From an uncultured Candidatus Saccharibacteria bacterium (lineage in GTDB: Bacteria; Patescibacteriota; Minisyncoccia; Phycocordibacterales; Zambryskibacteraceae): a stretch of 64,000 nt of DNA. The translations under genes and the position numbers were made by a program. The notes under the pieces were generated by a model. That model did not search any database. It had not been told where the DNA came from and saw nothing but the letters and a program-made list of their open reading frames with translations. Positions 39,550-57,549 of this stretch are shown here, in pieces. Location of the stretch: assembly GCA_964355645.1 (NCBI GenBank), contig CAYHDI010000001.1, positions 92,897 to 156,896 on the forward strand, in the 5' to 3' direction. Within the stretch, counting starts at the first letter, position 1, and every line of letters starts with the position of its first letter.

Positions 39550-39589
39550 TTCTGGGCTACCCCGTAGTGAACTTTGTTCTACTTCGGGG

Positions 39590-39660
39590 TGCGGGATGGG
39601 GGAATCGGACTCCCGACTACAGTTTGGAAAACTGTCGTTTTACCACTAAACTAATCCCGC
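39590..39660 (-). tRNA. tRNA-Gly (anticodon TCC)
   Basis: Hand-folded cloverleaf: acceptor GCGGGAT/ATCCCGC, anticodon arm ACAGT-TTTCCAA-ACTGT, T-loop TCCGATT. One A-C mismatch in the T-stem. Confidence 0.65.
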
Positions 39661-39672
39661 ATTGGTATTCTT

Positions 39673-39743
39673 TCGGGGCGCCGAGAATCGAACTCGGACC
39701 ACATGCTCCCAAAGCAAGTATACTACCACTATACTACGCCCCG
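39673..39743 (-). tRNA. tRNA-Pro (anticodon TGG)
   Basis: Acceptor CGGGGCG/CGCCCCG, anticodon loop TTTGGGA, T-arm CCGAG-TTCGATT-CTCGG. Confidence 0.6.
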
Positions 39744-39757
39744 TTTATATTCATCTT

Positions 39758-39828
39758 TCGGGCTGCCGGGACTCGAACCCGGGTCTCACGAACCCGAATC
39801 GTGAATAATACCTCTATAATACAGCCCG
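39758..39828 (-). tRNA. tRNA-Pro (anticodon CGG)
   Basis: Acceptor CGGGCTG/CAGCCCG, anticodon arm CACGA-TTCGGGT-TCGTG, T-arm CCGGG-TTCGAGT-CCCGG. The D-arm is atypical. Confidence 0.55.
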
Positions 39829-39916
39829 TAGGAATTTATCCTAGCATGGAGAAGGTTATTTACCAAAGAAAAATAAACTCGATTTTTTTCGTAAGATAAG
39901 ATATTATCATCTAACT

Positions 39917-39987
39917 GCGGGTATGGTTCAGTGGTAGAACAACTGGTTGCCAATCAGTAGATGGGAGTCCGATTCTCCCTACCCGCA
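39917..39987 (+). tRNA. tRNA-Gly (anticodon GCC)
   Basis: GCGGGTA...TGGTTCAGTGGTAGAACA...ACTGG-TTGCCAA-TCAGT...GGGAG-TCCGATT-CTCCC-TACCCGC-A folds as a clean cloverleaf. Confidence 0.7.
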
Positions 39988-40013
39988 CTGAGAAAAATAT
40001 ACTAATATCGATT

Positions 40014-40087
40014 GGTGCCCCCGCTAGGACTCGAACCTAGAACGACTGCTTCGAAGGCAGTTATGATATCCATTTCACTACGGGAGC
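40014..40087 (-). tRNA. tRNA-Arg (anticodon TCG), CCA encoded
   Basis: Acceptor GCTCCCG/CGGGGGC with a 3' ACCA, anticodon arm ACTGC-CTTCGAA-GCAGT, T-arm CTAGG-TTCGAGT-CCTAG. Confidence 0.7.
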
Positions 40088-43099: not shown

Positions 43100-44300
43100 C
43101 CTGTGCACAGGAAAGATTGAATTAAGCAACATCATATCAGACACTCTTTAATCTTTTCCTTAGGTGTTAAGCCGTTAATTCCCAAATGTTCACGTTCATT
43201 GTTATACCAATCAATATAGACTTGTCTCTTTAAATCAAGATCCTCAAGGGTTTTGAATGATACTTGATTCCAGAATTCTTCTCTATCTGTCCGGTGGCTT
43301 CTTTCCACCTTGCCATTCTGAGATGGTTTGCCCGGTTGAATCAGATAATGAATGATTTTGTTTTTAAGACAAGTTTGATCAAACAAATGTTTCTTTCTTG
43401 CACCCAGGCTCTTGTATGCTCCAACATATCTATTAGTGAAGATGGAACCGTTATCTGTCTTAACCCCCAGGACTTTGAATGGGGCGTGTTTAATCACTTC
43501 ATCCAGAAATCTCGAAGCATTTAATGAATGTTGTTCCGAATAAAACTTCAAGAATCTCCATCTGGTGCAGCAATCTATAGCCGTGAACTGAAAGATCCAT
43601 TTATCTTTATATCTCTTCATTAAAGCCACATCTATCTCTATAAGTTCTCCAGGAACCAAACTCTTCGGTTTCCAGATATCAGTTCTAGGTATTCGTCTCT
43701 TGGTTCGTACTAACTTCTCACGTTTCAAGACTTTATGTATTCCTCTGGCACTCATCACAGTTCCTTCTTTCAAGAGTCTGAATCTAATTTTTTGAGCACA
43801 GAAATTGTGTTCACTTCTAATTTCTCGTATTCTTTGAACTATATGTATTGGAGTGGTATGAGGATGAGAGTGATGAGCTCTGGATTTCTCCTTGAGACCA
43901 GTTAATCCATTCTTGAGATAACTCCTCTTCCATCTATGCAAAGTATCTCGGCAGAACCCAGAACGTTGGCTTAACTCTGTGATTGATAAATTTCCTTCAA
44001 AATGAAGCTTGAGCCAACGTTCCCGTTCGCTGGCAATCAATATATCTGTTTTTCTTATCATCTTAACCATAGTTTTACACTGTCTGAGATGATGGTACAC
44101 AATACCATTTACACTTGCTTTATTTTCAATTAGTGGTAGTTTAACAATCAGAGCGGTTCCCTTATTCAGGAGTTCAGATGACCAAATCTCAAGAGAATTG
44201 TCATGATGAAGATATTGGCAAACTTGGTCAGAATCCATTTGCTGTAGCAGATGATCCGCCGGATTCTGATCAGATTCTCAAGCAACTCATGGTCGATTAC
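43100..44300. mobile_element. IS481-family insertion sequence (ends not resolved by eye)
   Basis: Single full-length transposase ORF. Terminal inverted repeats could not be defined confidently. Confidence 0.5.
43132..44238 (-). CDS. IS481-family DDE transposase
   Basis: N-terminal HTH (LSITELSQRSGFCRDTLHRWKRSY) and rve integrase core (KTDNGSIF...IQPGKPSQNGKVERSHRT...EREHLGINGLTP). Confidence 0.8.
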   Translation of the reverse strand: MDSDQVCQYLHHDNSLEIWSSELLNKGTALIVKLPLIENKASVNGIVYHHLRQCKTMVKMIRKTDILIASERERWLKLHFEGNLSITELSQRSGFCRDTLHRWKRSYLKNGLTGLKEKSRAHHSHPHTTPIHIVQRIREIRSEHNFCAQKIRFRLLKEGTVMSARGIHKVLKREKLVRTKRRIPRTDIWKPKSLVPGELIEIDVALMKRYKDKWIFQFTAIDCCTRWRFLKFYSEQHSLNASRFLDEVIKHAPFKVLGVKTDNGSIFTNRYVGAYKSLGARKKHLFDQTCLKNKIIHYLIQPGKPSQNGKVERSHRTDREEFWNQVSFKTLEDLDLKRQVYIDWYNNEREHLGINGLTPKEKIKECLI

Positions 44301-44312
44301 TAGAGGTTCCGT

Positions 44313-45602
44313 ATGAACCTCTTTTTTGTTAGTATGTCTGTATATATGAAATCTTTGACCAAATTTGGAGTAGAATTTCATCACGAAGTTTTAAGGAATG
44401 GGGTAAATCTTTTCTTGTTCAAAAGGAAGGGCATGCCTATTTATATAAGGGCCACTTTTTTTGCTGGTTCGCGTTTCGATTCAATCCACGGTACGGCACA
44501 TTTCTATGAACACATGCTCGTAGCTGGTACAAAAAAATTTCCCTCAAAAAATTTAATTGCAGACTATATTCAAAAAGTTGGAGGAGAATTTGGAGCGAGT
44601 ACCAGTAATACAATTTTGAAATTCAATGTAGAAATACCCGAGGCTAAGGATTTGGAGACAGGAATAGAAATTATGAGAGAGTGCCTGGTCAACTCGCTTT
44701 TTGATCCCAAGACTATCGAAACCGAAAGAGGCTCGATTATTTCTGAACTTAATGCGAAAAAAACAAACCCAAACGAATATGTTTTTGAAGTATTTTCTAG
44801 AATCGCCTTTCAAGACACGGCTCTTGAGAACAGTGTTCTGGGTACAGAAGCTGAGGTTAAGACAATTAAAAAAGACGATCTTTTAAATTTTGGATCCAAG
44901 TTTATACATTCAGGCAATCTCGCTTTTGTTGCCAGTGGAGATATCAATATTGATGAATTAAAAACAGCACTCGAAAGTATTCATATTCCAGAAGGAAAAA
45001 AATTTGAAGTAGAAAACCAGATACCAACAATAAAAACCCGAAATTCAGAGATTGAATTTTACTCTGGAGTTAAACAGCTACAAGTAATTTTTGGCTGCCG
45101 TACATCCATTGAAACATTTAAGGAATATTGTGCTTTAAGAGTTTTAAACAATGTTCTTGGGGGCGGGAGGGGTTCTCGGTTGATAACCAAACTTCGTTAT
45201 GAAAATGGTTTGGTATATTCAGTCTCAAGTAATATTCTTGAATCTGCTGATTGGGGAATGTTCAGAATAAGGTTATCTTGTGATAAGGATAATTTTAAAC
45301 TGGCGAAGCAGTTAATTTTAGATGAATTCGATAATTTAAAACAGAACAATATTACTACAGAAGAATTGGAGAACAACAAATCTAAAATCTCGAAAGGCTC
45401 AATTCGAGATTTGCAAACATCGATTTCTTGGGTTAATAATCACGAAACAGATTCTATTTTTAACCCAGAAGCTTTAAATACTATTGAAGACCATATTAAA
45501 ATGATAGAAAACCTGACGTTGGATGATATAAGTATGGTGATAAAAAAATATCTAAGAGAAGAAAACTTTTATACCGCTATTTGTGGAGATTATAAAAAGT
45601 AG
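44313..45602 (+). CDS. M16-family (pitrilysin/insulinase-like) zinc peptidase
   Basis: Inverted zinc motif HFYEH with a downstream Glu, and the two-domain M16 architecture. Confidence 0.7.
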   Translation: MNLFFVSMSVYMKSLTKFGVEFHHEVLRNGVNLFLFKRKGMPIYIRATFFAGSRFDSIHGTAHFYEHMLVAGTKKFPSKNLIADYIQKVGGEFGASTSNTILKFNVEIPEAKDLETGIEIMRECLVNSLFDPKTIETERGSIISELNAKKTNPNEYVFEVFSRIAFQDTALENSVLGTEAEVKTIKKDDLLNFGSKFIHSGNLAFVASGDINIDELKTALESIHIPEGKKFEVENQIPTIKTRNSEIEFYSGVKQLQVIFGCRTSIETFKEYCALRVLNNVLGGGRGSRLITKLRYENGLVYSVSSNILESADWGMFRIRLSCDKDNFKLAKQLILDEFDNLKQNNITTEELENNKSKISKGSIRDLQTSISWVNNHETDSIFNPEALNTIEDHIKMIENLTLDDISMVIKKYLREENFYTAICGDYKK

Positions 45603-45654
45603 AACCCCCCAGCTTACGCCAAGGGGTTCGACAATACCGCTGACCGCAGCTACT

Positions 45655-45756
45655 TTACGACGCCGGGGAATCAGCGTCGGAATCCTCGCTGTAGTCATCG
45701 CTGCTGACGTCATCGACGTCCGCATCGTTGGCGCTGTCGCCATCGTCTGCCATCAT
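45655..45756 (-). CDS. 33-aa highly acidic Asp/Ser-rich peptide in a GC-rich segment
   Basis: MMADDGDSANDADVDDVSSDDYSEDSDADSPAS. SD-like GAGGTG 4 nt upstream. Promoter-like TTGACA-N15-TATAAT on the minus strand at about 45845-45875. Not in the ORF track (<60 aa). Confidence 0.35.
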   Translation of the reverse strand: MMADDGDSANDADVDDVSSDDYSEDSDADSPAS

Positions 45757-45895
45757 GATACACCTCTCGAGAGGATTGGGCAGTTTTCCACGCTTCCCTG
45801 ATGTGGGGAGATCGCAGAGGGAGCAAAGATCACTCCTACTTTCAGATTATACCCGTATGGCTTTTTGTCAATATCCAACACGCGGGCCCTTTTTG

Positions 45896-46147
45896 TTATT
45901 TAATTTTTTCTATCTCTTTTGGTTTAATCAATTTTATATCAATAATTTGTTTAGTTTTAATATCAAGATAATCAACGACGGTATTATTCATGGCGTTAAA
46001 ACCTATACGAAAAGTTTTTTCATTTTCCTTCATTAATACCCCAACACATTTATACTTATTTTTATCGGCATCAAGCGCGGTCAACTCAATCACAATATTA
46101 TTTTTTTTGTTTTCTGGGCTGAATTTTGGAATAGGTTTTGCTTTCAT
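45896..46147 (-). CDS. hypothetical small protein (very AT-rich)
   Basis: 83-aa ORF with no motif. Confidence 0.35.
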   Translation of the reverse strand: MKAKPIPKFSPENKKNNIVIELTALDADKNKYKCVGVLMKENEKTFRIGFNAMNNTVVDYLDIKTKQIIDIKLIKPKEIEKIK

Positions 46148-46153
46148 AATTAA

Positions 46154-46645
46154 TTAAATAATTTTTATTTCAGTAATAAACGATTTCGGTATCATATAAT
46201 ATTTTGGTTTTTTCTGTGGATGATTTTTAATTGGTAATGGATGTGTTTTAATGGTTTCCGGATTTTTTAATACTAAATAAGAATTTGTTGCCTTATATAA
46301 AATACCCTCGGAGTACATAATCGAACAATCCCTCTTGGGCATATTTGCAATATAAACAATATCTCGCCATACAACGGATATATTCGACCCGATTTTAATT
46401 TTCTGTAGCCCTTGAATTTCAAAGTTTTTGTTTAAAGAAGTCAGCGCATTTGCTGGAATTATTAATCCTTTAATTATTTGTTTGTTATCTTTGTTTTTAG
46501 ATATTTGTTTTATGAATTCAATGGTTATGTTTTTCTTGCTTTTTCTCATATACCCATATGCTTCATGAATAGACAGTTTTGTAGGTAAATTCTTATTATA
46601 AAAATAAGATGCGTCAATGTATTTTATGTTAGATATTTTTTCCAT
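46154..46645 (-). CDS. hypothetical protein (start trimmed to MEKISNIKY; the ORF-track N-terminal 78 aa are read-through of a GC-rich insert)
   Basis: Composition switches sharply at 46650. The AT-rich part forms a coherent 164-aa ORF. Confidence 0.4.
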   Translation of the reverse strand: MEKISNIKYIDASYFYNKNLPTKLSIHEAYGYMRKSKKNITIEFIKQISKNKDNKQIIKGLIIPANALTSLNKNFEIQGLQKIKIGSNISVVWRDIVYIANMPKRDCSIMYSEGILYKATNSYLVLKNPETIKTHPLPIKNHPQKKPKYYMIPKSFITEIKII

Positions 46646-46700
46646 ATACTTTAATAATAAACCCGGGGAGGATGATAATCTATCCTCCCCGGTTGTGCTG

Positions 46701-46901
46701 TTACTTCTTGGACCCGAAGACGGAATCCCAGAAGCTTGTAGCGCGACTTCCAGATTCGTCGTCGCGACTGAACGATTGGCTGTTCTTCTCTGAGTTCCCC
46801 CGTTCGAACACGCCTGCCTCGGTGGCATCATCTTGTGCCTGGTGCTCTGCCGCCACAGCTTTGCTCGAAGAATCGCCACTGTCGCTTGAGTATTTGTTCA
46901 C
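46701..46901 (-). CDS. 66-aa acidic Ser/Asp-rich protein in a GC-rich segment
   Basis: GTG start preceded by AAAAGGAGG at an 8-nt spacing, and a minus-strand TTGAAA-N17-TATAAT promoter at about 46985-47015. Confidence 0.45.
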   Translation of the reverse strand: MNKYSSDSGDSSSKAVAAEHQAQDDATEAGVFERGNSEKNSQSFSRDDESGSRATSFWDSVFGSKK

Positions 46902-47157
46902 AGTTCTCGCCTCCTTTTCGAGCGGTTAAAGACAAGGCTGGCTGTCATCCGACTACCAGCATTATTTACATTCTATATGCAATTATAAGACAATAATTGA
47001 CTTGTTTCAAGCTTGTATAAGTTGTTTTACCCATCCAGCATGCGGGCCCTTTTTGTTTGAGAATTTTATTTAATGGTTAAGTTTCGCGATTGGTTTAAGT
47101 TATATGATTACTGTACAAGTTGTTGAAATTAATGTCTATTTATATTAAAATCATTTT

Positions 47158-48855
47158 ATGGAAAACCCCGATACATACGATGATTTTTCAATTAACAGGA
47201 AGGAGAATCCTGAATTACAAAAAAAGATTGCGGAGGCCGTTTTTCTGTCTGAGGCCTTATTAACACCTGAAGAATTAGAGAGAAAATATCCCGAGAGGGA
47301 ATTACCTCCAGAAGCGATGATCACAAGAGTTGGACCCAGTCCAACAGGATTTATGCATATCGGGGGAATATATATGGCCCTTATTTCTGAAAGATTTGCC
47401 CACCAAACGGATGGTATTTATTATCTTAGAATAGAGGATACGGATAGAAAAAGAGAAGTAGATGGGGCACGAAAAGTCATCGTTGATTCACTTCACAATT
47501 TTGGACTTGACCCGGATGAGGGAGAAAAGTTTGATGGTTTAGAGCATGGAAACTATGGACCGTATTGTCAATCAGAGCGAAGGGAAGTATATGGGAGTTA
47601 TATTAAGTCACTTCTTACAAGAGGTGACGCATACTTGTGTTTTTGTAGTGAGGAGGAGCTGGAAGCTATGCAAAAAATGCAGGAAACCTTAGGTGTAAGG
47701 AGAGGATATTGTGGGCCGTGGGCTAAATGGCGGGATGCATCTCAAGAAAAAGTTTTAGATGAATTATCAAGAGGAACTCCATATGTTGTCAGGTTTAGGT
47801 CCCAAGGAGACCCTAATAAAATCTTTACCCACCATGATTTACTGAAAGGCGATGTTATTTTATCAGAAAATGATTTGGATGCTGTGATAATGAAATCAGA
47901 TGGTTTGCCCACATATCATCTTGCTCATGCTGTTGATGATCATCTCATGAGAACAAGCCATGTTTTAAGAGGTGACGAGTGGTTGCCTTCCGTTCCCCTT
48001 CACTACGAATTGTTTAAGACCCTAGGATTCGATCTCCCAGAATATGCTCATATATCTCCGATAAATAAATTGGATAATGGGAATAAAAGGAAACTTTCGA
48101 AGAGAAAGGATCCAGAGGCCAATGTTTCTTTCTATCAACAGAAAGGTTATCCTCCCGAGGCTGTTTTGGAATACCTTTTAAATCTTGCTAATTCTGATTT
48201 TGAAGATTGGAGAAAAGAAAATCCAAACACGAGTTATAAAGAGTTTGAACTCAAAATGAGCAGGTTGGCCAATAGTAACGGGCCATTGTTTGATGAGAGT
48301 AAATTAAGGGATACAGCAAAAGAAATTATCTCAAAAATGTCTGCGGATCAAATATTCGAAAATGTTTTAAATTGGGCAGAAATTAATGATTATCAATTTT
48401 TTACTTTATTAAATAATGACAAGGAATATTGGACCAGTATTTTTGGTATTGAAAGAGGGGGTAGTAATTCAAGAAAAGATATTTCAGCATGGTCTGATGT
48501 GCGTGGATTTTACGAATTCTTTGATAAAGGAAAATATCAACTGCCAAATTGGGGGAATTTCGTCTCAATTTTTAACACCAAAGAAATAAAAGAGATTTTT
48601 AGTGAATACCTTGCCATTTATGATGAGAACGATTCCAAGGTGGAATGGTTAGAGAAAATTAGACAATTATGTATCAAATATAATTTGGCGCCAAATTTAA
48701 AAACATACAAAGCAGACAAAACTAATTTTAGAGGCCATATAGGAGATCTTACTCAGTGTATACGCTTTGCAATTACTGGAAGAACTCAATCGCCTGATAT
48801 TTTTGAGATAATAAAAATATTAGGCAAAAGTGAGGTTTTTCGAAGACTTGCATAA
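47158..48855 (+). CDS. gltX: glutamyl-tRNA synthetase
   Basis: Class I HIGH motif (PSPTGFMHIGGIYMAL), KMSKS-like KLSKRK, and an anticodon-binding C-domain over 565 aa. Confidence 0.85.
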   Translation: MENPDTYDDFSINRKENPELQKKIAEAVFLSEALLTPEELERKYPERELPPEAMITRVGPSPTGFMHIGGIYMALISERFAHQTDGIYYLRIEDTDRKREVDGARKVIVDSLHNFGLDPDEGEKFDGLEHGNYGPYCQSERREVYGSYIKSLLTRGDAYLCFCSEEELEAMQKMQETLGVRRGYCGPWAKWRDASQEKVLDELSRGTPYVVRFRSQGDPNKIFTHHDLLKGDVILSENDLDAVIMKSDGLPTYHLAHAVDDHLMRTSHVLRGDEWLPSVPLHYELFKTLGFDLPEYAHISPINKLDNGNKRKLSKRKDPEANVSFYQQKGYPPEAVLEYLLNLANSDFEDWRKENPNTSYKEFELKMSRLANSNGPLFDESKLRDTAKEIISKMSADQIFENVLNWAEINDYQFFTLLNNDKEYWTSIFGIERGGSNSRKDISAWSDVRGFYEFFDKGKYQLPNWGNFVSIFNTKEIKEIFSEYLAIYDENDSKVEWLEKIRQLCIKYNLAPNLKTYKADKTNFRGHIGDLTQCIRFAITGRTQSPDIFEIIKILGKSEVFRRLA

Positions 48856-48867
48856 ACGACAAACAGA

Positions 48868-49818
48868 ATGGACAGCTTGTTTTTTAAGAAAAAAGAGGTT
48901 GCCGAATCTTTAAAAAGACTTTCTAAAAACATTATTTCATATTATGTTGATTATAAACTAATGTCTAAGAATGCCATTCATGAACTCAACACAAAGACAA
49001 AGAATAGGCAATTTCAAAATAATATTATTGGCGCGTTCACACTGAGCACTTGTTTGCGGCAAGAAATTTATTCATTTGGTTCCAAAAAAAGTGTTGATGA
49101 TGAAAATTATTACGCATGTTTGAGTGGAAAATTAGCACTAAGAAGATTAATTACTATTGCCTGCGGTCTTCACTCAGAAATTATTGGTGAGAAAGAAATA
49201 TTTTTACAATTAGGTAATTCAATACTTTTTGCTTACGATCAGTCATTAATATCAAAGATGTTATGTAGCGATTTATTGAATATCTTATATATTGCGGATG
49301 AATTAAAGAAGAAATTTAGTATACAAACAGATGAGAACTACTCAACTGTCGGTGTTTCAATTATGGCAGGTTTTGCAAATTCTAATTCAACGTTATGTAT
49401 TATTGGTTCTGGATATATGGCTCATGTTTTTATTAAGAATTTCAAATCAATAGAGTATAAGAAAATAATATGGATTAGTCGGGACATAGACAGGCTTAAA
49501 AAAATAGTCGGTATTACAGGTGTTGACAAAGATAAAGTAGTTTACGTAGAAACAAAAGATGCAATTAAATATATACAAGAAGCGGATCTAATTTTTGCAG
49601 CTACAAATAATACTGATACCCCATATCGCCGTATGCTTTTCCCCAAAGCAAAAGCTATTATTGATGTTTCCTACCCGTCGCTTTTTTCTGAAGGTTGTAA
49701 CTCAAATTTTATTTCTATTCAAAACACATTTTTTGAAAAATTGATTAGTAAGCCGGTAGACAAAATATCAATACTCAAGGTTGAAAAGGCGATTGATAAG
49801 TTACTAAAAATTATATGA
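48868..49818 (+). CDS. glutamyl-tRNA reductase (HemA)-like protein, C-terminally truncated
   Basis: Block-wise alignment to E. coli HemA: FTLSTCLRQEIY vs VLSTCNRTELY (catalytic Cys retained); IACGLHSEIIGEKEIFLQ vs VASGLDSLVLGEPQILGQ; CIIGSGYMAHVF...IIWISRDIDRLK vs LLVGAGETIELV...MIIANRTRERAQ; EADLIFAATNN vs EADIIISSTAS; AIIDVSYPS vs LLVDIAVPRD. Lacks the ~100-aa dimerisation domain. Confidence 0.6.
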   Translation: MDSLFFKKKEVAESLKRLSKNIISYYVDYKLMSKNAIHELNTKTKNRQFQNNIIGAFTLSTCLRQEIYSFGSKKSVDDENYYACLSGKLALRRLITIACGLHSEIIGEKEIFLQLGNSILFAYDQSLISKMLCSDLLNILYIADELKKKFSIQTDENYSTVGVSIMAGFANSNSTLCIIGSGYMAHVFIKNFKSIEYKKIIWISRDIDRLKKIVGITGVDKDKVVYVETKDAIKYIQEADLIFAATNNTDTPYRRMLFPKAKAIIDVSYPSLFSEGCNSNFISIQNTFFEKLISKPVDKISILKVEKAIDKLLKII

Positions 49819-50477
49819 AAAAAGTGACCGATGCAAAGATTGTTGACCTTGTTGTAGATATGGTTCCCAAGACCAAGATAATTTTTATCACTGCCCAATA
49901 CGGGAAGTCAACAAGTGATGTTGATATCTATTGTGTTGCTGACGTTAGAAAATCATATGTTCACATTTTTTTAAAAAATGATCGTTTGTATGAAATTTTT
50001 ATTGATAGCATCAAAAATCTTAAGAAAAAAGCAAAAAATAAAGATGAGATAACTTTTTCATTTTTGCATAGAATGAGGTTGGTTTATGGTGACAAAACCG
50101 TTCATAATAATTTCAAGAATTTATTCCCAACAAGATATTCTATGCCCGAATACAGACTCCAGAAGTTAATATATCGAATTAAAGTTATTAGTTCGAAATA
50201 TACTTCCTCAAAAAATGATTTGTTGAGGAATTTTTTCCTAGGACAGCTTATTCAATATTTTATAATGTTGGAGTTTCATCTGAATGGTATATGGCCAGCA
50301 AGTCCTAAGAAATGGCTGGAACAACTTAGTCAAATGAATACGGCAACCTCTAAACAGTTAATAAGTTTGATTGCAAATAAAAACACAAATGTTGGCTCCC
50401 TTATATTAGAATACACCAAGAATTTTAAGGGGCTAGATTTGGAATATTTTACAACCAATCAAACATTAATTGTGTAA
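49815..50477 (+). CDS. putative nucleotidyltransferase-fold protein
   Basis: GKSTSDVDIYCVAD resembles the pol-beta NTase G-S...D-x-D signature. Start overlaps the hemA-like stop (ATGA). Confidence 0.4.
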   Translation: MKKVTDAKIVDLVVDMVPKTKIIFITAQYGKSTSDVDIYCVADVRKSYVHIFLKNDRLYEIFIDSIKNLKKKAKNKDEITFSFLHRMRLVYGDKTVHNNFKNLFPTRYSMPEYRLQKLIYRIKVISSKYTSSKNDLLRNFFLGQLIQYFIMLEFHLNGIWPASPKKWLEQLSQMNTATSKQLISLIANKNTNVGSLILEYTKNFKGLDLEYFTTNQTLIV

Positions 50478-50506
50478 TTATCGGTTCTTTCCCTGTTTTA
50501 GATCTT

Positions 50507-50590
50507 GTGGATACCCACAACTTTTTTAAAGAGAATACTATATAATAGAGAATAGTAATTCTTTAATTTTCTTAAACTAATGAAAAAAGA
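50507..50590 (+). repeat. copy 1 of 70-bp direct repeat + ATGAAAAAA (duplicated promoter/5' end of the surface protein gene)
   Basis: TGTGGATACCCACAACTTTTTTAAAGAGAATACTATATAATAGAGAATAGTAATTCTTTAATTTTCTTAA is identical at 50507-50576 and 52256-52325. Both copies continue into ATGAAAAAA. Confidence 0.85.
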
Positions 50591-50593
50591 GCG

Positions 50594-50620
50594 TTGTGGG
50601 GTTACCACAACGCTCCGTGT
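50594..50620 (-). terminator. rho-independent terminator of the metzincin cassette
   Basis: GAGCGTTGTGG-GGTTA-CCACAACGCTC (11-bp stem), followed on the minus strand by TTTTTTCAT. Confidence 0.6.
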
Positions 50621-50665
50621 TTCGCGCGAATGGATATCGCAGAAACTATGCAAATCAATCCAATC

Positions 50666-52033
50666 TTACTGGCAAACGGTTTTTTCGAGAGCAAGTTTGA
50701 GCATGAACTCGCGCTGACCCTGATGTGCTTCCATGATCGAGCACCGAAGACCACCGTACTTCCTCTCGAGATCCCTCGTCTTGTACAGCATGAGAATGTA
50801 CAGGACGTCGTACTTGCTGGGATATCCGGGCACGAACCCGGTGCGATCATCAATGGTGAATCCCTCGCACTTCTGACCCTGAAGGCTTTGGAATCCGCAC
50901 CCGTGACCAACTCCAACGAAATGGAGCAGTTCATGGCGGAAACTTCCCGGATTCTTGCGCCAATCGTCGAGAGACATGGATACGACTAGACCTGCCCCAA
51001 GCTCTCCATTCCCTAGATAACTTACTCCACCTTGAGCTGGGATAGGAGCAATCTTTGAGGAGATGTATACATTCACGCCGTCTGTCGTCGTGACCTCGCT
51101 CTGATTTCCAGCACGAAGGTATTGACTACCGAAGTACTGGTTCAGAACGTCTGCAGCTGACCATGCCAGTGCCGAATCGGTCGGAGCGAATTGAGCATCG
51201 CCCAAATCGTTTCGGAGCGCATACGGCTGTGGGAGGGTCTTGTGAGTGGCGTTGTTGTAATACCACACACCATTCACAAGTTGACGAGGGTAGAACGATG
51301 AACCATCACTCCCCGCAATGTACGCCAAGCTGATGTCGAACGGTAGCCTTACGCCGGCATACACGCCCGAAGGAATGGTCATGCCGAGAGGCTCAACAAC
51401 GAGTACAAGAGTCTTCGTCATGTCCGCCTTCCGGATGGTTCCGTCGCACTTCCTCGCCGTGTACAACCGACTCGTCCCAGGCATCGCGTCAACAATGCAC
51501 GAAACAGAATCGGTATTCGCAAGCGCGGTCGGAAGAGTGAAACTTCCGTCCGATGACGTCACATCAACACTTGCAGTGTCGGCACCCTTGAAAAGAGTGA
51601 CACGTACACTCTTCGGTGTAGCCCAATCATTTGCCAGGTCGACAATCATTACTCGACCATTCACAACTGACTGTGGTACAGGAACGGGCTTGCAGTCACT
51701 CTTGGTATCTCCGCTCTTTACCGAATGTACCGTAGCACAAACAGTATAGAGTCCGGGCATCGCGGGTACTGTGCCACACGTAGCTGGGTTGCCATTCACC
51801 GTGCAGTCAGTCGTAACGCTTCCAACGTTTGAGGAAGCTTGGACTGAAATCACGATCAGAGGCATCGGGTATGCCTGCGTCACAGACGCCGACACATTCA
51901 CCGAAAGCGTTTCTTGCACCGGCGGGGGCGGAGGATTTCCATTCCCCGTCGGAGAACTGCCACACGCTGTGGCAATGAAAGAGATCACGGCCGCGCAAAC
52001 GGCCGTGGCGAAACCACGGATGATGCGCGACAT
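50666..52033 (-). CDS. secreted lipoprotein zinc metalloprotease (metzincin-like HExxHxxGxxH), GC-rich foreign gene
   Basis: Lipoprotein signal MSRIIRGFATAVCAAVISFIATAC|GSS and the motif HELLHFVGVGHG. GC is about 55-60% against ~33% in the flanks. It has its own promoter (TTGACA x2 ... TATGGT) and SD (CAGGAGG) at about 52040-52200. Confidence 0.6.
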   Translation of the reverse strand: MSRIIRGFATAVCAAVISFIATACGSSPTGNGNPPPPPVQETLSVNVSASVTQAYPMPLIVISVQASSNVGSVTTDCTVNGNPATCGTVPAMPGLYTVCATVHSVKSGDTKSDCKPVPVPQSVVNGRVMIVDLANDWATPKSVRVTLFKGADTASVDVTSSDGSFTLPTALANTDSVSCIVDAMPGTSRLYTARKCDGTIRKADMTKTLVLVVEPLGMTIPSGVYAGVRLPFDISLAYIAGSDGSSFYPRQLVNGVWYYNNATHKTLPQPYALRNDLGDAQFAPTDSALAWSAADVLNQYFGSQYLRAGNQSEVTTTDGVNVYISSKIAPIPAQGGVSYLGNGELGAGLVVSMSLDDWRKNPGSFRHELLHFVGVGHGCGFQSLQGQKCEGFTIDDRTGFVPGYPSKYDVLYILMLYKTRDLERKYGGLRCSIMEAHQGQREFMLKLALEKTVCQ

Positions 52034-52255
52034 TGAAACCTCCTGCCTGACGAATCAGGACTTTTAGATTGGATGATTACAAAGAACTGTTCAGTCGAAC
52101 AGCTCTTCATAGAGGAGTCATTCGACTCAGGCGCTTTCGCACCTCTTACGTCCACCATACACCCAAACCATAAATTTGTCAAGTGTCAAGTCCATCTTCC
52201 CTGTGTATAGCTTTTTAGTCGGAAATCATGCCTAAGAGACATATTTACTCAATCA

Positions 52256-52337
52256 TTGTGGATACCCACAACTTTTTTAAAGAGAATACTATATAATAGA
52301 GAATAGTAATTCTTTAATTTTCTTAACAATGAAAAAA
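52256..52337 (+). repeat. copy 2 of the 70-bp direct repeat (native promoter of the surface protein gene)
   Basis: Identical to 50507-50576. Carries the palindromic TTGTGG-ATAC-CCACAA element and TATAAT-like boxes. Confidence 0.85.
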
Positions 52338-54596
52338 CAAATTTTATTTAAAAGCTTTATTCTCTTGTTTGTTGCAAGCATTACTCTTTTCAGTTCTCAA
52401 AAAGTTGAAGCGTATCAGATGGAATTTTTTGCCAGTGATGGGATGGGGGGTAATACATCGATAACATCGAACACCCTTGACGCTGTGGCTCCAACCTTAA
52501 CAACAACTTCCTCTTCTATCACATTGTATGTTGAGGGAGGGCCATTAGACGGGACACCATACCTTCTAAAATCATCGAGTCCAGCAACAGCATATAGTGG
52601 TACAACTGCTTTTCCTATAGATTCAGGATTTGACAACCAATATATCACTGGTCTTACGCCCGGTGATTACACGTTTCGTGCACGTCTATCAAACACCCAA
52701 GATGGCGGGACAACATATCTTTATGCAGAAATTCCTGTTCGTGTCGTAGCCACATCCGCCACAGTGAATGTTTCTCTAAACTCATGCCCAACTGGTACTA
52801 CGTACGGTTCGAGTACAGGGAACAATGGGACACAGCCGGGAGGAACCTTCACCTTTACTCCAGCATCAAATGGAACTCAAGTTACCATAAGTGTAACAAC
52901 TCCGGTTGATTATGTATTTGATTGGACGACGCCGAGTTCACAAATAGCTTATCAAGGAGGTTCCTATAATTTTACAGGGCTATGTAGACAACAAACACCG
53001 CCTGTAACTGCTGACATAAAAGCCAATGGTTCTGACGACCCAATTACTATTACTTCTGGACAATCAGCCTCGCTTACTTGGTCATCAACAAATGTAAGAT
53101 CTTGTTCGAGTGCGGATTTTTCAACTGGGAATGTCACTTCTAATTCAACAGGAGTATCTGTATCACCCACAGCAACGAAGACTTACAACCTAACTTGTAC
53201 ATCTAATGATGGGCGAACTGGAATAGATAGCGTAACCGTGAATGTTGTCTCCGCTCCAGCTCCAACGGTCACAGTTACCGCTAGCCCAGCTTCAATAAGT
53301 TCTGGGGGTTCTTCTACAGTCTCGTGGTCTTCAACGAATGCCACCTCTTGTGCTTCTAATTGGTGGAGTGGTTCCTCATCTACTTCCGGCTCGGTAACTG
53401 TTTCACCTTCTGTGACAACGAATTATACGAAAACCTGTTCAAACGCTTCCGGAAGCAACACTGGTTCTGCCACGGTTTCTGTCACTCCTGGTGCTTCGGC
53501 TAACCTGACAGCAAATCCAACTACCATGACGAAGGGTAACGGTACCATTCTGAACTGGACGAGTACCAATACGAGCTCGTGTAGTGGAGTCGGCTTCAAT
53601 ACTAGCGGAGCCACTTCGAATACAGTGTCTTGGTACTATTGGATTGCCCCAACTCAAACCACTACTTATACCTTGAATTGTATTTCAAGTGTCGGCGGCC
53701 CAAATCCATCATCAAGTGCGACAGTGACGGTGACTGCTCCGACTGTAGCTACGATCATACTTTATGCTGGTTTGGCTCAAGGTGGGGGAACTGTTAATCC
53801 TGGAAATTTTAGCAATACTGGTCAAACCCCGACTCCTATATATGTGACCCCGAATCCTACGAACGGTACGACTTACACTGTGACTCCTTATAATGTTTCA
53901 GGATACACAGCGTCTGTTGAAGATGGTCAGACAGGAGTACCTGGAGCTTCGGCCTTGCTGTTCCCCGGGGATTCCAAGTATTTCTCAGTGATTTACACTT
54001 CATCCTTCAATTATTCTCTCTCGAATTCTGGAGCAACCACAGTGCCGAAGGGTGGTTCAGGACAAAATACCATCACTGAAACACTCGTGAGTGGAACTTC
54101 TCAACCAGTCACCCTCGCTGTTTCTGGTGTTCCGGCCGGAGTTTCTGCCACACTTTCTACATGTTCTCCTGTGAATCCAACATGTACTTCGGTCATCACG
54201 TTTACAGTTCCTGCGAATACTCCAGCTGGGGATTACAACGTCACCGTGACCGGCAGTCCTTTGTCCAAAACAACGAATCTTACTCTTCGTGTAGTGAACA
54301 ATCCTGCTATTACTTCTACTTGCGTGGCCTCACCTTCCTCGGCCCTTGTTGGCCAAACGGTGACTTGGACAGCGAATGCTTCAGGTGGAACCCCGCCCTA
54401 TACCTATAGTTGGTCTGGTTCAGGAATTCCTACAGATCCCGCACCAAGTTCAGCCTCATTTGGTATCACTTACTCAACTATTGGACAGAAAACTGCTCAA
54501 GTCGTAGTGACCGACTCACTCTCGTCTACTGGTTCGTGCCCAGCCCCCGGTGGTACAGTTCAAATCAACTTCAACCCACAGTTCAAGGAGTTTTAA
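52329..54596 (+). CDS. large secreted surface protein with tandem Ig-like repeats and C-terminal PKD domain
   Basis: Signal peptide, then three ~85-aa repeats with the conserved pattern sWsSTN..SC...........TY.L.C (53040-53760), and a PKD-like ...GGTPPYTYSWSGSG near the C-terminus. Confidence 0.65.
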   Translation: MKKQILFKSFILLFVASITLFSSQKVEAYQMEFFASDGMGGNTSITSNTLDAVAPTLTTTSSSITLYVEGGPLDGTPYLLKSSSPATAYSGTTAFPIDSGFDNQYITGLTPGDYTFRARLSNTQDGGTTYLYAEIPVRVVATSATVNVSLNSCPTGTTYGSSTGNNGTQPGGTFTFTPASNGTQVTISVTTPVDYVFDWTTPSSQIAYQGGSYNFTGLCRQQTPPVTADIKANGSDDPITITSGQSASLTWSSTNVRSCSSADFSTGNVTSNSTGVSVSPTATKTYNLTCTSNDGRTGIDSVTVNVVSAPAPTVTVTASPASISSGGSSTVSWSSTNATSCASNWWSGSSSTSGSVTVSPSVTTNYTKTCSNASGSNTGSATVSVTPGASANLTANPTTMTKGNGTILNWTSTNTSSCSGVGFNTSGATSNTVSWYYWIAPTQTTTYTLNCISSVGGPNPSSSATVTVTAPTVATIILYAGLAQGGGTVNPGNFSNTGQTPTPIYVTPNPTNGTTYTVTPYNVSGYTASVEDGQTGVPGASALLFPGDSKYFSVIYTSSFNYSLSNSGATTVPKGGSGQNTITETLVSGTSQPVTLAVSGVPAGVSATLSTCSPVNPTCTSVITFTVPANTPAGDYNVTVTGSPLSKTTNLTLRVVNNPAITSTCVASPSSALVGQTVTWTANASGGTPPYTYSWSGSGIPTDPAPSSASFGITYSTIGQKTAQVVVTDSLSSTGSCPAPGGTVQINFNPQFKEF

Positions 54597-56549: not shown

Positions 56550-56948
56550 TTGTCTCCACCGAATATCTTCCAAAGGAGTAGACAAGTGTCAACCTTCCCG
56601 AAATGCCCCAATTGTGGTAACACAGATGATGGCGACAGCATTTGGACCTGTCGCGATTGCGGTTTGGTTCATTGCAAGGAATGTGATCCTCCTAATGGGT
56701 CATGCCCTTCTTGTGGTGGTTCTTGCAAGGAAGCTGGAACTATCGACAGTTCGAGTGGCCAGGATGAAGATGACGATGTTAGTGGATTCTCATCATGCCC
56801 AAATTGTGGCAAGAACGACGATGGTGATAGTATCTGGAAATGTGGACATTGTGGCCTTGTCCACTGCAAAGACTGCGACCCAGATGATGGAGGATGTCCG
56901 TCTTGTGGTAGCAATGATGTAAGCATTATTGGACATATCGACAGCTAA
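56550..56948 (+). CDS. tandem double zinc-ribbon protein
   Basis: Two copies of CPNCGxxDDGDSIWxCxxCGLVHCKxCDPxxGxCPSCG separated by an acidic linker. Confidence 0.45.
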   Translation: MSPPNIFQRSRQVSTFPKCPNCGNTDDGDSIWTCRDCGLVHCKECDPPNGSCPSCGGSCKEAGTIDSSSGQDEDDDVSGFSSCPNCGKNDDGDSIWKCGHCGLVHCKDCDPDDGGCPSCGSNDVSIIGHIDS

Positions 56949-57000: not shown

Positions 57001-57549
57001 TTATTTTGTATAAAGATAAAGAGTTTTTGCCAATTGATCGTTGTTAGTTTCTATCGAAATTGTTTCTATTGGTTTCCAATTTGGGAATTGATAATCGCAA
57101 GAAACGATTCGTGTCCCTATCCCGCATTCATTTTTTATTTTGGATTTCATCTTTTTCATTAAAGGAGAAGAAAGGTAACAATAAATATGGGTTGCTTGTG
57201 ACAGATTTGAATTTAAGATGTTTCCAAATTTAATTTGTACAGGAATCCTGCATGTATGAATTTTTGCACTGAGAAACGGCAAGATTCCAAATTCAATACC
57301 TACAGCATTAATCCCCGGCACATGTCTAACGGCTTCAATCAGTATTCGTGCATCCCCACATCCTAAATCATATAAAACACTTTCTTTAGATAAATTTAAT
57401 AATTTAATTATTTTTGTCAGAGCTCTTTTCCTAGTTGATACAAACGGAACATTTATAAACATTTGGTCTCTTAGAATAATTACAAAAATAATAGTGAAAG
57501 CTATGATTACAAACAAAAAACCAATAATTATCAAAAAAAGTAAATTCAT
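57001..57549 (-). CDS. membrane-anchored class I SAM-dependent methyltransferase
   Basis: N-terminal TM followed by motif I VLYDLGCGDARILIEA. Confidence 0.6.
   Translation of the reverse strand: MNLLFLIIIGFLFVIIAFTIIFVIILRDQMFINVPFVSTRKRALTKIIKLLNLSKESVLYDLGCGDARILIEAVRHVPGINAVGIEFGILPFLSAKIHTCRIPVQIKFGNILNSNLSQATHIYCYLSSPLMKKMKSKIKNECGIGTRIVSCDYQFPNWKPIETISIETNNDQLAKTLYLYTK

What the first reader, a model, noticed from the sequence alone, without database searches (positions are those of the whole stretch)
50507..52337. Foreign GC-rich metzincin-lipoprotein cassette inserted into a duplicated promoter/5' end of the giant surface protein gene
A 70-bp sequence plus ATGAAAAAA is present twice, at 50507-50585 and 52256-52334. 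The second copy is the promoter and start of the 755-aa surface protein. Between the copies lies a ~1.67-kb segment of sharply higher GC. It carries a reverse-oriented gene for a lipoprotein with HELLHFVGVGHG (HExxHxxGxxH), its own promoter and SD, and a strong terminator (11-bp stem) that abuts the first repeat copy. This is a clean example of recent horizontal acquisition of a secreted protease next to a surface adhesin. The duplicated promoter copy 1 (with its palindromic TTGTGG-ATAC-CCACAA operator-like site) now drives only a 45-codon ORF into the terminator.
Basis: seen in the sequence. Interest (0 to 1): 0.65.

Follow-up and report, generated by a model that had tools for sequence, protein, structure and literature searches.

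The report
Resident protease cassette, duplicated neighbour promoter
A GC-rich gene for a surface-tethered zinc protease, flanked by two copies of its neighbour's promoter, is probably not a recent foreign insert: it is an old, often rearranged partner of an adhesin-like gene in ultra-small groundwater bacteria (Patescibacteria), and the two ends of its message carry matching sequences that co-vary between lineages.

Summary
An exact 71-nt direct repeat (about 83 nt with an indel) brackets a 1.67-kb segment of 52% GC. That segment encodes a 455-aa lipoprotein with HELLHFVGVGH, its own promoter, Shine-Dalgarno site (SD) and a 12-bp-stem terminator. The "recent foreign acquisition" reading is only partly supported.

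- **Resident gene.** Homologues lie beside the same surface-protein gene in six related Patescibacteria lineages. Promoter, leader hairpin and 3'-UTR modules are conserved.
- **Family-wide GC anomaly.** The gene is GC3-rich in eight of nine low-GC genomes examined, so GC does not date an acquisition.
- **Mosaic coding body.** It is 30% identical to the closest relative's copy (housekeeping genes 84%). Residues 1-105 and the promoter are orthologous to that relative; the rest resembles other alleles. This points to allele replacement.
- **Lineage-specific duplication.** The closest relative has one promoter copy and the protease unit in the opposite orientation. The repeat therefore marks a local inversion or re-insertion.
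- **Protein.** The model (pLDDT 92) has Ig-like, transthyretin-like and metzincin domains. The family has 472 cluster representatives and no Pfam model.
- **New here.** In all eight Patescibacteria loci with DNA, an 8-13-bp stretch of the 5' UTR pairs with the sequence at the stop codon, with compensatory changes.

The parts
50505..50588 (+). Repeat copy R1. The exact core is 50505-50575 and the tail with indel ends in ATGAAAAAA(G). It holds the palindrome TTGTGGATACCCACAA (50505-50520) followed by a T-run, and TATAAT at 50541-50546.
   Evidence: Its left flank resembles the left flank of the single copy in L009. Hairpin -6.7 kcal/mol.
50580..50717 (+). 45-codon ORF that starts at R1's ATG and runs antisense into the 3' end of the protease gene. 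Probably non-coding.
   Evidence: No Pfam hit.
50588..50616 (-). Intrinsic terminator of the protease gene (type B: GCGTTGTGG..CCACAACGC plus U6). Its U-tract is the A-run of R1's ATGAAAAAA.
   Evidence: Homologous terminator in L014. TGTGG-N5-CCACA occurs only here in the window.
50619..50646 (-). 3'-UTR hairpin (GUUUCUGCGAUAUCCAUUCGCGCGAAAC). It is conserved in L014, and in L016 with compensatory changes.
50653..50666 (-). 3' arm AGAUUGGAUUGAUU, overlapping the last base of the stop codon. It is complementary to the 5'-UTR arm.
50666..52033 (-). 455-aa lipoprotein. Signal peptide with Cys24 lipobox, Pro-rich tether, Ig/PKD-like domain (43-119), transthyretin-like domain (123-~213) and metzincin-like catalytic domain (~215-455; H367-E-x-x-H371-x-x-G374-x-x-H377).
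52034..52147 (-). Structured ~115-nt leader with four hairpins. The 5'-terminal hairpin lies at 52130-52143 and the SD (AGGAGG) just upstream of the ATG.
   Evidence: z -4.1. 78% identical to L009. Hairpin covariation seen in the alignments.
52066..52078 (-). 5' arm AAUCAUCCAAUCU (-45..-33 from the ATG), complementary to the 3' arm (9 contiguous pairs plus 4 more across a 1-nt bulge).
52154..52182 (-). Promoter of the protease gene, TTGACA-17-TATGGT. It is conserved in L009, L005, L014 and L016.
52256..52337 (+). Repeat copy R2, the upstream region and first three codons of the surface-protein gene. It is 90% identical to the single copy in L009.
52329..54596 (+). 755-aa Ser/Thr-rich surface protein with PKD/Ig-like repeats. 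It is the syntenic partner of the protease gene.
47034..47060 (+). 27 nt identical to the right arm and T-run of the L009 protease terminator at its junction with R. A second copy (80%) lies at 45873-45912. It is either a relic of an L009-like arrangement or a repeated element.

Best explanation
WHAT IT IS. The GC-rich 1.67 kb is one complete transcription unit: a sigma-70-type promoter, a ~115-nt structured leader, an SD, a 455-codon gene, a 3'-UTR hairpin and an intrinsic terminator. The product is a membrane-tethered, three-domain, metzincin-like zinc protease. The unit is an old resident of the adhesin / type-IV-pilus neighbourhood in a clade of Patescibacteria, not a newcomer.

SHOWN:
- Homologues lie beside the same surface-protein gene in six related lineages.
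- The promoter, a 5' hairpin, a 3'-UTR motif and a 3'-UTR hairpin are conserved even where the proteins are only 22-45% identical.
- The gene is a GC3 outlier in eight of nine low-GC genomes examined.
- The coding body is mosaic and discordant with housekeeping genes.
- The nearest relative has one copy of the repeat and the unit in the opposite orientation.

INFERRED:
- The gene evolves by repeated allele replacement. These bacteria encode ComEC, and cultured relatives are naturally transformable.
- In this lineage the unit was inverted or re-inserted immediately after ATGAAAAAA of the surface-protein gene. The joint lies in the A-run shared by that start and the terminator's U-tract. This left a second copy of the 71-83-nt upstream region.
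- R2 serves the surface-protein gene. R1, if active, yields only a short RNA or an antisense RNA into the protease 3' end. Recombination between R1 and R2 could delete the unit.
- The two ends of the protease mRNA pair with each other (8-13 bp, just upstream of the SD with the stop-codon region). This would couple stability or translation initiation to termination.

The cause of the persistent GC-richness is unresolved. The candidates are GC-biased gene conversion at a recombination hot spot, selection, or recurrent import.
For: Synteny and relatives:
- Gene neighbourhoods.
- L012/L006 is titled Candidatus Saccharibacteria. P0125 is from a Parcubacteria bacterium and P0137 from a Patescibacteria group bacterium.

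GC3 of the gene against its neighbours:
- Window 0.57 vs 0.38; L005 0.62 vs 0.36; L009 0.63 vs 0.34; L014 0.54 vs 0.30.
- L016 0.70 vs 0.45; L018 0.47 vs 0.37; L020 0.55 vs 0.29-0.38.

Discordance and mosaic:
- Window versus L009: TIM 84%, PGK 84%, RecJ 76%, surface protein 60%, protease 30%.
- Window versus L005: TIM 39%, protease 43%.
- Residues 1-105 are closest to L009 (41-61%). Residues 130-455 are closest to P0002/P0003 (40-70%, against 13-27% for L009).
- DNA 51893-52214 is 78% identical to L009 in inverted orientation.

Repeat:
- R is single in L009/L019 and absent from the other loci. No relative has flanking repeats.
- Junction sequences.

Conserved untranslated modules.

5'/3' complementarity:
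- All 8 Patescibacteria loci with DNA have 8-13 perfect pairs.
- Shuffles reach the observed length in 0-51 of 2000.
- Of 150 control genes in the same loci, 7 reach 8 pairs or more and 2 reach 9.
- Cognate pairs are best in the cross-matrix.
- The helix appears in the co-fold minimum-energy structure of 7 of 8 loci (total co-fold gain over separate folding 4.7-13.9 kcal/mol), with the local hairpins left intact.
- It is absent in the GC-rich-context homologue L011.

Protein:
- Model pLDDT 92.2, pTM 0.84.
- Motif columns are 93-100% conserved.
- 472 cluster representatives at E <= 1e-3.

Background: natural competence and homologous recombination in Saccharibacteria are documented in PMC10633639. 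A comEC-type gene lies downstream in the same contig.
Against: - Only one close relative (L009) exists in the collections searched, so the order of events (inversion, duplication, allele swap, insertion of the 3.4-kb GluRS block) cannot be resolved.
- A gene inherited vertically for this long should have lost a GC3 excess of about 20 points. That favours some form of repeated import or a special force, neither of which was shown.
- The closest homologue (P0002, 45%) lies on a 59% GC contig, so exchange with GC-rich organisms has occurred.
- Promoter activity of R1/R2 is inferred from position, a TATAAT box and conservation. The consensus scan did not flag R.
- The transcript ends are unmapped, so the RNA pairing is a prediction.
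- The Met-turn position, which is Met in 53 of 70 family members, is Gln385 here. Catalytic competence is therefore unproven.
Confidence: 0.6

Rival explanations
1. First reader's model. The whole protease gene is a recent horizontal acquisition from a GC-rich donor, inserted into the surface-protein promoter with duplication of the target.
For: - Sharp GC step and GC3 outlier status.
- Flanking direct repeats.
- The closest homologue, P0002, is on a 59% GC contig.
- R1's left flank and R2's right flank match the single-copy state in L009.
Against: - The gene is present at the same locus in six related lineages.
- The promoter, leader and first 105 codons are 78% identical in DNA to L009, which is about the genome-wide level (72-82%).
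- UTR modules are shared across Patescibacteria and absent from the GC-rich-context copy.
- The same GC3 excess occurs in relatives whose proteins are only 22-45% identical.
- There are no mobility genes or inverted ends within the repeat-bounded segment.
Confidence: 0.1
2. Recurrent import. The locus is a replacement hot spot into which protease alleles from GC-rich organisms (possibly hosts of these epibionts) are repeatedly recombined. Conserved UTR modules serve as homology anchors. GC-richness persists because no allele stays long enough to ameliorate.
For: - Persistent GC3 excess in eight of nine low-GC genomes.
- Discordant and mosaic coding body.
- P0002 lies in a GC-rich contig.
- Many distant family members have Arg/Ala-rich signal peptides typical of GC-rich organisms.
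- Competence genes are present.
Against: - The members closest to the window protein that carry an organism name are all Patescibacteria.
- Both the orthologous N-terminal part and the swapped C-terminal part have the same GC3 (0.58).
- A GC-rich donor would not supply the Patescibacteria-type UTRs, so crossovers would have to fall inside the coding sequence every time.
Confidence: 0.25
3. The 5'/3' complementary arms act at the DNA level. They would be inverted repeats marking the boundaries of an exchangeable or invertible coding cassette, recognised by a recombinase or used in template switching, and not an RNA-RNA interaction.
For: - The arms bracket exactly the SD-CDS-stop module.
- The coding body is hyper-divergent between conserved flanks.
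- The orientation and position of the unit vary between relatives.
- Concerted change of both arms is also expected for protein-recognised ends.
Against: - No recombinase is associated with the unit in any locus.
- The arm sequence differs between lineages, whereas recognition sites are usually conserved.
- The arms are single-stranded between stable local hairpins in the predicted RNA folds.
- Rearrangements between relatives involve the whole unit, including promoter and terminator, not the segment between the arms.
Confidence: 0.2
4. Assembly artefact. The insert is mis-joined, or is a separate 1.75-kb circle threaded into the contig at a shared repeat.
For: In a k=31 graph the repeat is a branch point, and the insert forms its own unitig (L003).
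Against: - The repeat (at most 88 nt) is shorter than typical reads.
- The same linear order appears in contigs from several assemblies, including an indel-rich, apparently long-read-derived assembly from another sample that holds both junctions about 1.74 kb apart.
Confidence: 0.03

Closest known systems
Metzincin zinc endopeptidases (MMP/M10A, serralysin/M10B, astacin/M12A, snapalysin/M7)
   Same: - HExxHxxGxxH zinc site.
- In most family members, a Met eight residues after the third His, at MMP-like spacing.
   Different: - No Pfam or NCBIfam model matches this protein. Relatives give only sub-threshold M10 or Reprolysin hits.
- The architecture is lipoprotein, Pro-rich tether, Ig/PKD-like domain, transthyretin-like domain, then catalytic domain.
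- There is a conserved GH(T/G)C..W..S motif and a Cys pair.
- In this member the Met-turn position is Gln385.
5'-UTR/3'-UTR base pairing in S. aureus icaR mRNA (PMC3868564)
   Same: A bacterial mRNA whose 3' UTR is complementary to its own 5' UTR near the ribosome-binding region.
   Different: - Here the 3' arm starts at or within 16 nt of the stop codon, and the 5' arm lies 3-25 nt upstream of the SD, not on it.
- The pairing is conserved with compensatory changes across a phylum-level group.
- No experiment exists for this case.
Genomic islets bounded by direct repeats (Campbell-type integration; homology-facilitated illegitimate recombination in transformable bacteria, term found in PMC8116780 and PMC6382021)
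   Same: - Direct repeats flank a compositionally distinct segment.
- One junction lies in a short microhomology (the A-run).
- The organism carries competence genes.
   Different: - No integrase or att-type core is present.
- The repeat is the neighbour's promoter.
- The cargo is a resident gene of the locus, not new DNA.
Adhesin / type-IV-pilus surface loci of Saccharibacteria (PMC10633639, read; PMC12206443, title and abstract only)
   Same: - The neighbourhood holds a large repeat-rich surface protein.
- Relatives add PilB-like T2SSE and PilC-like T2SSF genes.
- Cultured relatives have an epibiotic lifestyle that depends on adhesins.
   Different: A tethered metzincin partner has not been described there as far as I could find: no paper combined "metzincin" with these taxa among the 12 listed.

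Membership tests
Metzincin clan | Extended zinc-binding motif HExxHxxGxxH | tested here: met
   HELLHFVGVGH at residues 367-377. These columns are conserved in 65-70 of 70 family members, and the full motif is present in 122 of 151.
Metzincin clan | Conserved Met-turn beneath the zinc site | tested here: not met
   The family has Met at +8 from the third His in 53 of 70 members. This protein has Gln385, as do 4 of 70 including P0003. No other conserved Met was identified downstream.
Metzincin clan | Catalytic-domain fold | tested here: met
Metzincin clan | Zinc-dependent proteolytic activity | not testable with these tools
   Requires biochemistry.
Curated families M10 (matrixin/serralysin), M12 (astacin/reprolysin), M7 | Match to the family profile above its cut-off | tested here: not met
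   The window protein gives no Pfam or NCBIfam hit at E <= 0.01. Among 70 relatives, 15 give weak Peptidase_M10 hits and 10 give weak Reprolysin_5 hits (best E 1e-4 to 1e-6). The PDB profile search finds only the zinc-motif stretch.
Bacterial lipoprotein | Signal peptide ending in a lipobox with invariant Cys | tested here: met
   The N-terminus is MSRIIRGF-ATAVCAAVISFIATA-C24. Cys24 is invariant among the four closest sequences. 88 of 151 members fit a lipobox pattern. The model shows a helix at 6-19 followed by a disordered Pro-rich tether. No dedicated predictor was available.
Recently acquired genomic island | Atypical composition | tested here: met
   GC 0.52 against 0.41. GC3 z is 2.6-2.8.
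Recently acquired genomic island | Absence from the orthologous locus of relatives | tested here: not met
   A homologue is present at the locus in all relatives recovered.
Recently acquired genomic island | Mobility gene or tRNA at the boundary | tested here: not met
   No such gene lies between or next to the repeats. The nearest IS integrase is at 43132-44238 and the nearest tRNAs at 39.6-40.1 kb.
Transposable element insertion | Terminal inverted repeats and a short target duplication | tested here: not met
   The insert has no inverted ends. The duplication is 71-83 nt, far longer than the usual transposon target duplications (own knowledge).
5'-3' UTR pairing element (icaR-like) | Complementarity between the mRNA's own 5' and 3' UTRs beyond chance | tested here: met
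   All 8 Patescibacteria loci with DNA have 8-13 bp. Shuffles reach this in 0-51 of 2000. Of 150 control genes, 7 reach 8 bp or more.
5'-3' UTR pairing element (icaR-like) | Compensatory change between lineages | tested here: met
   The arm pairs differ by lineage:
- Window: AUCCAAUCU / AGAUUGGAU.
- L016: AUUCAAUCCAAAC / GUUUGGAUUGAAU.
- L005: AACUUCAAUUA / UAAUUGAAGUU.
- L018: AGCAAAUCC / GGAUUUGCU.
Cognate pairs are best in the cross-matrix. This rests on 8 loci and my own registration, not on a formal covariation model.
5'-3' UTR pairing element (icaR-like) | Both arms lie within one transcript, and pairing changes expression | not testable with these tools
   Needs transcript-end mapping and reporter assays.

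The most novel reading that the evidence does not exclude
Patescibacteria carry a previously undescribed kind of self-contained surface-protease gene cassette. It has a GC-rich, rapidly exchanged coding body held between conserved untranslated modules. Its mRNA is closed by co-varying 5'/3' cyclisation arms that link the stop codon to the ribosome-binding region. The GC-richness would be the footprint of continual recombination (biased gene conversion) or of repeated capture from GC-rich hosts at a host-interaction locus.
Probability: 0.3. Interest if true: 0.75.

Novelty: new variant of a known kind. Interest (0 to 1): 0.55.

Why it matters
- **Caution on method.** A sharp GC step bounded by direct repeats looked like textbook recent gene transfer. 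Comparison with relatives shows a resident gene whose odd composition is a long-lived family trait.
- **A candidate host-interaction factor.** It defines an uncurated family of tethered metzincin-like proteases (472 cluster representatives, no Pfam model). In Patescibacteria the family is linked to adhesin-like and type-IV-pilus genes, and these organisms depend on attachment to other cells.
- **Two testable puzzles.**
  - Why does one gene stay about 20 points richer in GC3 than its genome across deep divergence?
  - Does the co-varying pairing between the 5' UTR and the stop-codon region regulate the mRNA? That kind of control is documented in very few bacterial genes.

Tried and rejected
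- **Known RNA families.** Rfam found nothing in the leader, the repeat or the GC-rich patches.
- **Pseudogene remnants.** I asked whether the GC-rich patches at 45.6-47.1 kb are protease pseudogene remnants. A family HMM run on six-frame translations found nothing, and tblastn found nothing.
- **More relatives.**
  - The species-representative genome scan found only the Saccharibacteria MAG.
  - The metagenome scan with the protease alignment found nothing.
  - An exact-pattern scan for the repeat core found only the JGI copy of L009.
  - A profile search of the 5.8-billion-protein set returned only 6 proteins, probably swamped by Pro-rich words.
- **Flanking repeats in relatives.** None were found.
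- **R-like sequence elsewhere.** None exists in the window or the other loci.
- **Long-segment duplex energies.** RNAduplex on 90-nt segments did not discriminate because large internal loops are allowed. I replaced it with contiguous-helix statistics and gene controls.
- **Taxonomy of the family.** Cluster look-ups named only three organisms.
- **P0133 locus.** No DNA was returned.
- **Identity of the GC-rich contig L011.** Its flanking ORFs are truncated and uninformative.
Full report
**Origin of the window.**
- The window matches a 189-kb contig from a 0.1-µm-filtered groundwater metagenome (Hainich well H52, ERZ1292618).
- Relatives of the locus include a MAG titled Candidatus Saccharibacteria. 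Family members are also named from a Parcubacteria bacterium and a Patescibacteria group bacterium.
- I therefore treat the organism as a low-GC (40.8%) member of the Patescibacteria. This is an inference.

**1.
- An exact 71-nt direct repeat lies at 50505-50575 and 52256-52326. With a small indel it continues through ATGAAAAAA to about 50588 and 52337. It is the only exact repeat of 35 nt or more in the window.
- Between the copies GC is 0.52-0.55, against 0.29-0.32 upstream.
- The 455-codon ORF on the minus strand (50666-52033) is the top GC3 outlier of about 60 ORFs (0.568 against a mean of 0.38).
- The ORF carries HELLHFVGVGH and a signal peptide ending in Cys24.
- It has a TTGACA-17-TATGGT promoter and a 12-bp-stem terminator whose U-tract abuts R1.
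- An indel-rich assembly from another sample contains both junctions in the same order. An independent unitig spans the insert. An assembly artefact is therefore very unlikely.

**2. The gene is a resident, not a newcomer.**
- The word-indexed search found only three homologues. An exhaustive profile search found 472 cluster representatives.
- Where DNA was available, the homologue lies beside a homologue of the 755-aa surface protein. It usually has a small membrane protein, PilB-like T2SSE, TIM, PGK and HIT nearby. This holds for L005/L006, L009, L014, L015, L018, L020 and the P0133 contig.
- Orientation and order vary. The gene is divergent from the surface-protein gene in L005, L014, L018, P0133 and the window. 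It is co-directional and upstream in L009, and downstream in L015 and L020.
- In L016 the unit lies in an unrelated context.

**3. High GC is a family trait.**
- In L005, L009, L014, L016, L018 and L020, as in the window, the gene's GC3 exceeds that of its neighbours by 0.10-0.29. It is the first or second outlier in each.
- In L015 the gene is GC-rich but is not an outlier.
- These proteins are only 22-45% identical, so the excess cannot date a recent event. Its cause is unresolved. The candidates are:
  - GC-biased gene conversion at a recombination hot spot, a mechanism proposed for bacteria in PMC4450053;
  - selection;
  - repeated import. The closest homologue, P0002, sits on a 59% GC contig.

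**4. The coding body is mosaic.**
- L009 is the nearest relative: TIM 84%, PGK 84%, RecJ 76%, surface protein 60%. Its protease is only 30% identical to the window's.
- The distant L005 (TIM 39%) has a protease 43% identical to the window's.
- Sliding windows show that residues 1-105 are closest to L009 (41-61%). Residues 130-455 are closest to P0002/P0003 (40-70%, against 13-27% for L009).
- At the DNA level the promoter, leader and first ~140 nt of coding sequence (51893-52214) are 78% identical to L009, in inverted orientation.
- The window's terminator resembles that of L014 (type B). L009, L005 and L015 share another type (type A).
- I infer allele replacement by recombination. A comEC-type gene lies downstream in the same contig, and natural transformation with homologous recombination is documented in cultured Saccharibacteria (PMC10633639).

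**5. The repeat.**
- L009 has a single copy of R (86-90% identical to both window copies), directly between its protease terminator and the surface-protein gene. No relative has a flanking repeat.
- R1's left flank and R2's right flank are the ones that match L009. Locally, then, the 1.75-kb unit (insert plus one R) looks inserted just after ATGAAAAAA.
- The R1/insert joint falls in an A-run shared by that start and the terminator's U-tract.
- The terminator stem also contains TTGTGG..CCACAAC, like the R palindrome. It is the only such site in the window.
- Synteny with L009 breaks at an IS integrase gene (43132-44238) and resumes at R.
- A 27-nt perfect match to L009's terminator/R junction lies 3.4 kb left of R1 (47034-47060). 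It is separated from R1 by a low-GC block carrying GluRS, a GlutR-like gene and a 220-aa ORF. A second, 80% copy at 45873 makes the "relic" reading uncertain.
- The most economical reading is a lineage-specific inversion or re-insertion of a resident unit. Possible routes are integration of a circular or linear copy through R, or tandem duplication followed by deletion. The exact path cannot be resolved with one close relative.
- R is presumed to be the surface-protein promoter from its position, its TATAAT box and its 90% conservation. The consensus scan did not flag it.
- R1, if active, would give a short RNA ending at the hairpin, or an antisense RNA.

**6. The protein.**
- With a 70-sequence alignment the model reaches pLDDT 92.2.
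- Domain order: signal helix, disordered Pro-rich tether, Ig/PKD-like sandwich, transthyretin-like sandwich, catalytic domain.
- The zinc-motif columns are almost invariant. The family has Met eight residues after the third His in 53 of 70 members, but this protein has Gln there.
- No Pfam or NCBIfam model matches it. It is best described as a member of an uncurated metzincin-like lipoprotein family. Activity is untested.

**7. Conserved untranslated modules and a 5'/3' pairing (new here).**
- Alignments of the flanks show four shared elements:
  - a shared promoter;
  - a 5'-terminal hairpin with compensatory changes;
  - a motif immediately after the stop codon (TTGRATTGAWTYG, found once per locus apart from a second site in L016);
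  - a 3'-UTR hairpin.
- The 3' motif is the reverse complement of a leader segment upstream of the SD.
- In all eight Patescibacteria loci with DNA there is a perfect helix of 8-13 bp between positions -47..-11 and the first 25 nt from the stop codon.
  - Shuffles reach this length in 0-51 of 2000.
  - Among 150 other genes in the same loci, 7 reach 8 bp and 2 reach 9 bp.
  - Cognate partners are best in the cross-matrix.
  - The GC-rich-context homologue lacks the helix.
- Co-folding places the helix in the minimum-energy structure of 7 of 8 loci, without disturbing the local hairpins.
- The closest precedent I know is the 5'-3' UTR pairing of S. aureus icaR mRNA (PMC3868564). There, however, the 3' UTR covers the SD itself.
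- A DNA-level role, as cassette-bounding inverted repeats, is not excluded.

**Verdict.** The central claim of a recent foreign acquisition is not supported. The remaining interest lies in the persistent GC anomaly, the mosaic exchange and the co-varying end-to-end complementarity.

Noticed in passing
window 43132-44238 (-): An IS-type transposase gene (rve integrase core plus HTH domains) sits exactly where synteny with the nearest relative L009 breaks (window 43010 / L009 5422). It may have contributed to the rearrangement of the 43-50.5 kb region.
   Followed up: partly
window 45589-45912 and 46595-47072: Two related GC-rich units (~0.46 GC in an AT-rich setting) lie on the minus strand. 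Each has a near-consensus promoter (for example TTGACA-17-TATAAT), a strong SD and a small acidic or hydrophilic ORF (about 33 and 66 aa). Each is bounded by the motif ATCCARCAYGCGGGCCCTTTTTGTT. One copy of that motif is 100% identical over 27 nt to the protease terminator of L009. There is no Rfam hit and no similarity to the protease family.
   Followed up: partly
window 47061-50497: A low-GC block (0.33) carries GluRS, a 316-aa truncated glutamyl-tRNA-reductase-like protein (GlutR_N plus an NAD-binding domain, far below the HemA cut-offs) and a 220-aa ORF without hits. It is absent from this position in all relatives. A HemA-like gene next to GluRS is odd in an organism unlikely to make haem.
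   Followed up: no
window 52201-52214 and 52256-52271; L005 about 7860-7880: A TGTGGATA-like motif recurs in the divergent intergenic region: CCCTGTGTATAGCT in the window, CCCTGTGGATAGGT in L005, and the R palindrome TTGTGGATACCCACAA. It may be a shared regulator site for the protease and surface-protein genes.
   Followed up: no
window 56550-56948 (+): A 132-aa protein made of two copies of a Cys-rich zinc-ribbon-like repeat (CPNCG..DDGDSIW.C..CGLVHCK.CDP..G.CPSCG). Together with the adjacent 182-aa ORF (57001-57549, GC 0.30) it lies in a stretch with no DNA match to L009, between PGK and HIT.
   Followed up: no
L016 5240-6935 (Parcubacteria bacterium C7867-005): Two further strongly GC3-rich genes (0.65 and 0.77, against about 0.42 for neighbours) lie just upstream of that genome's protease gene. 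This suggests that such genomes hold a small class of GC-rich genes.
   Followed up: no
window 52085-52114 (-), within the protease leader: A 15-bp perfect hairpin (AUGAAGAGCUGUUCGACUGAACAGUUCUUUGU) followed by a U-containing stretch lies in the leader and is conserved in L009. It could act as an attenuator or a processing site.
   Followed up: partly
window 39587-40087: A cluster of five tRNA genes: Gly-TCC, Pro-TGG, Pro-CGG, Gly-GCC and Arg-TCG.
   Followed up: no
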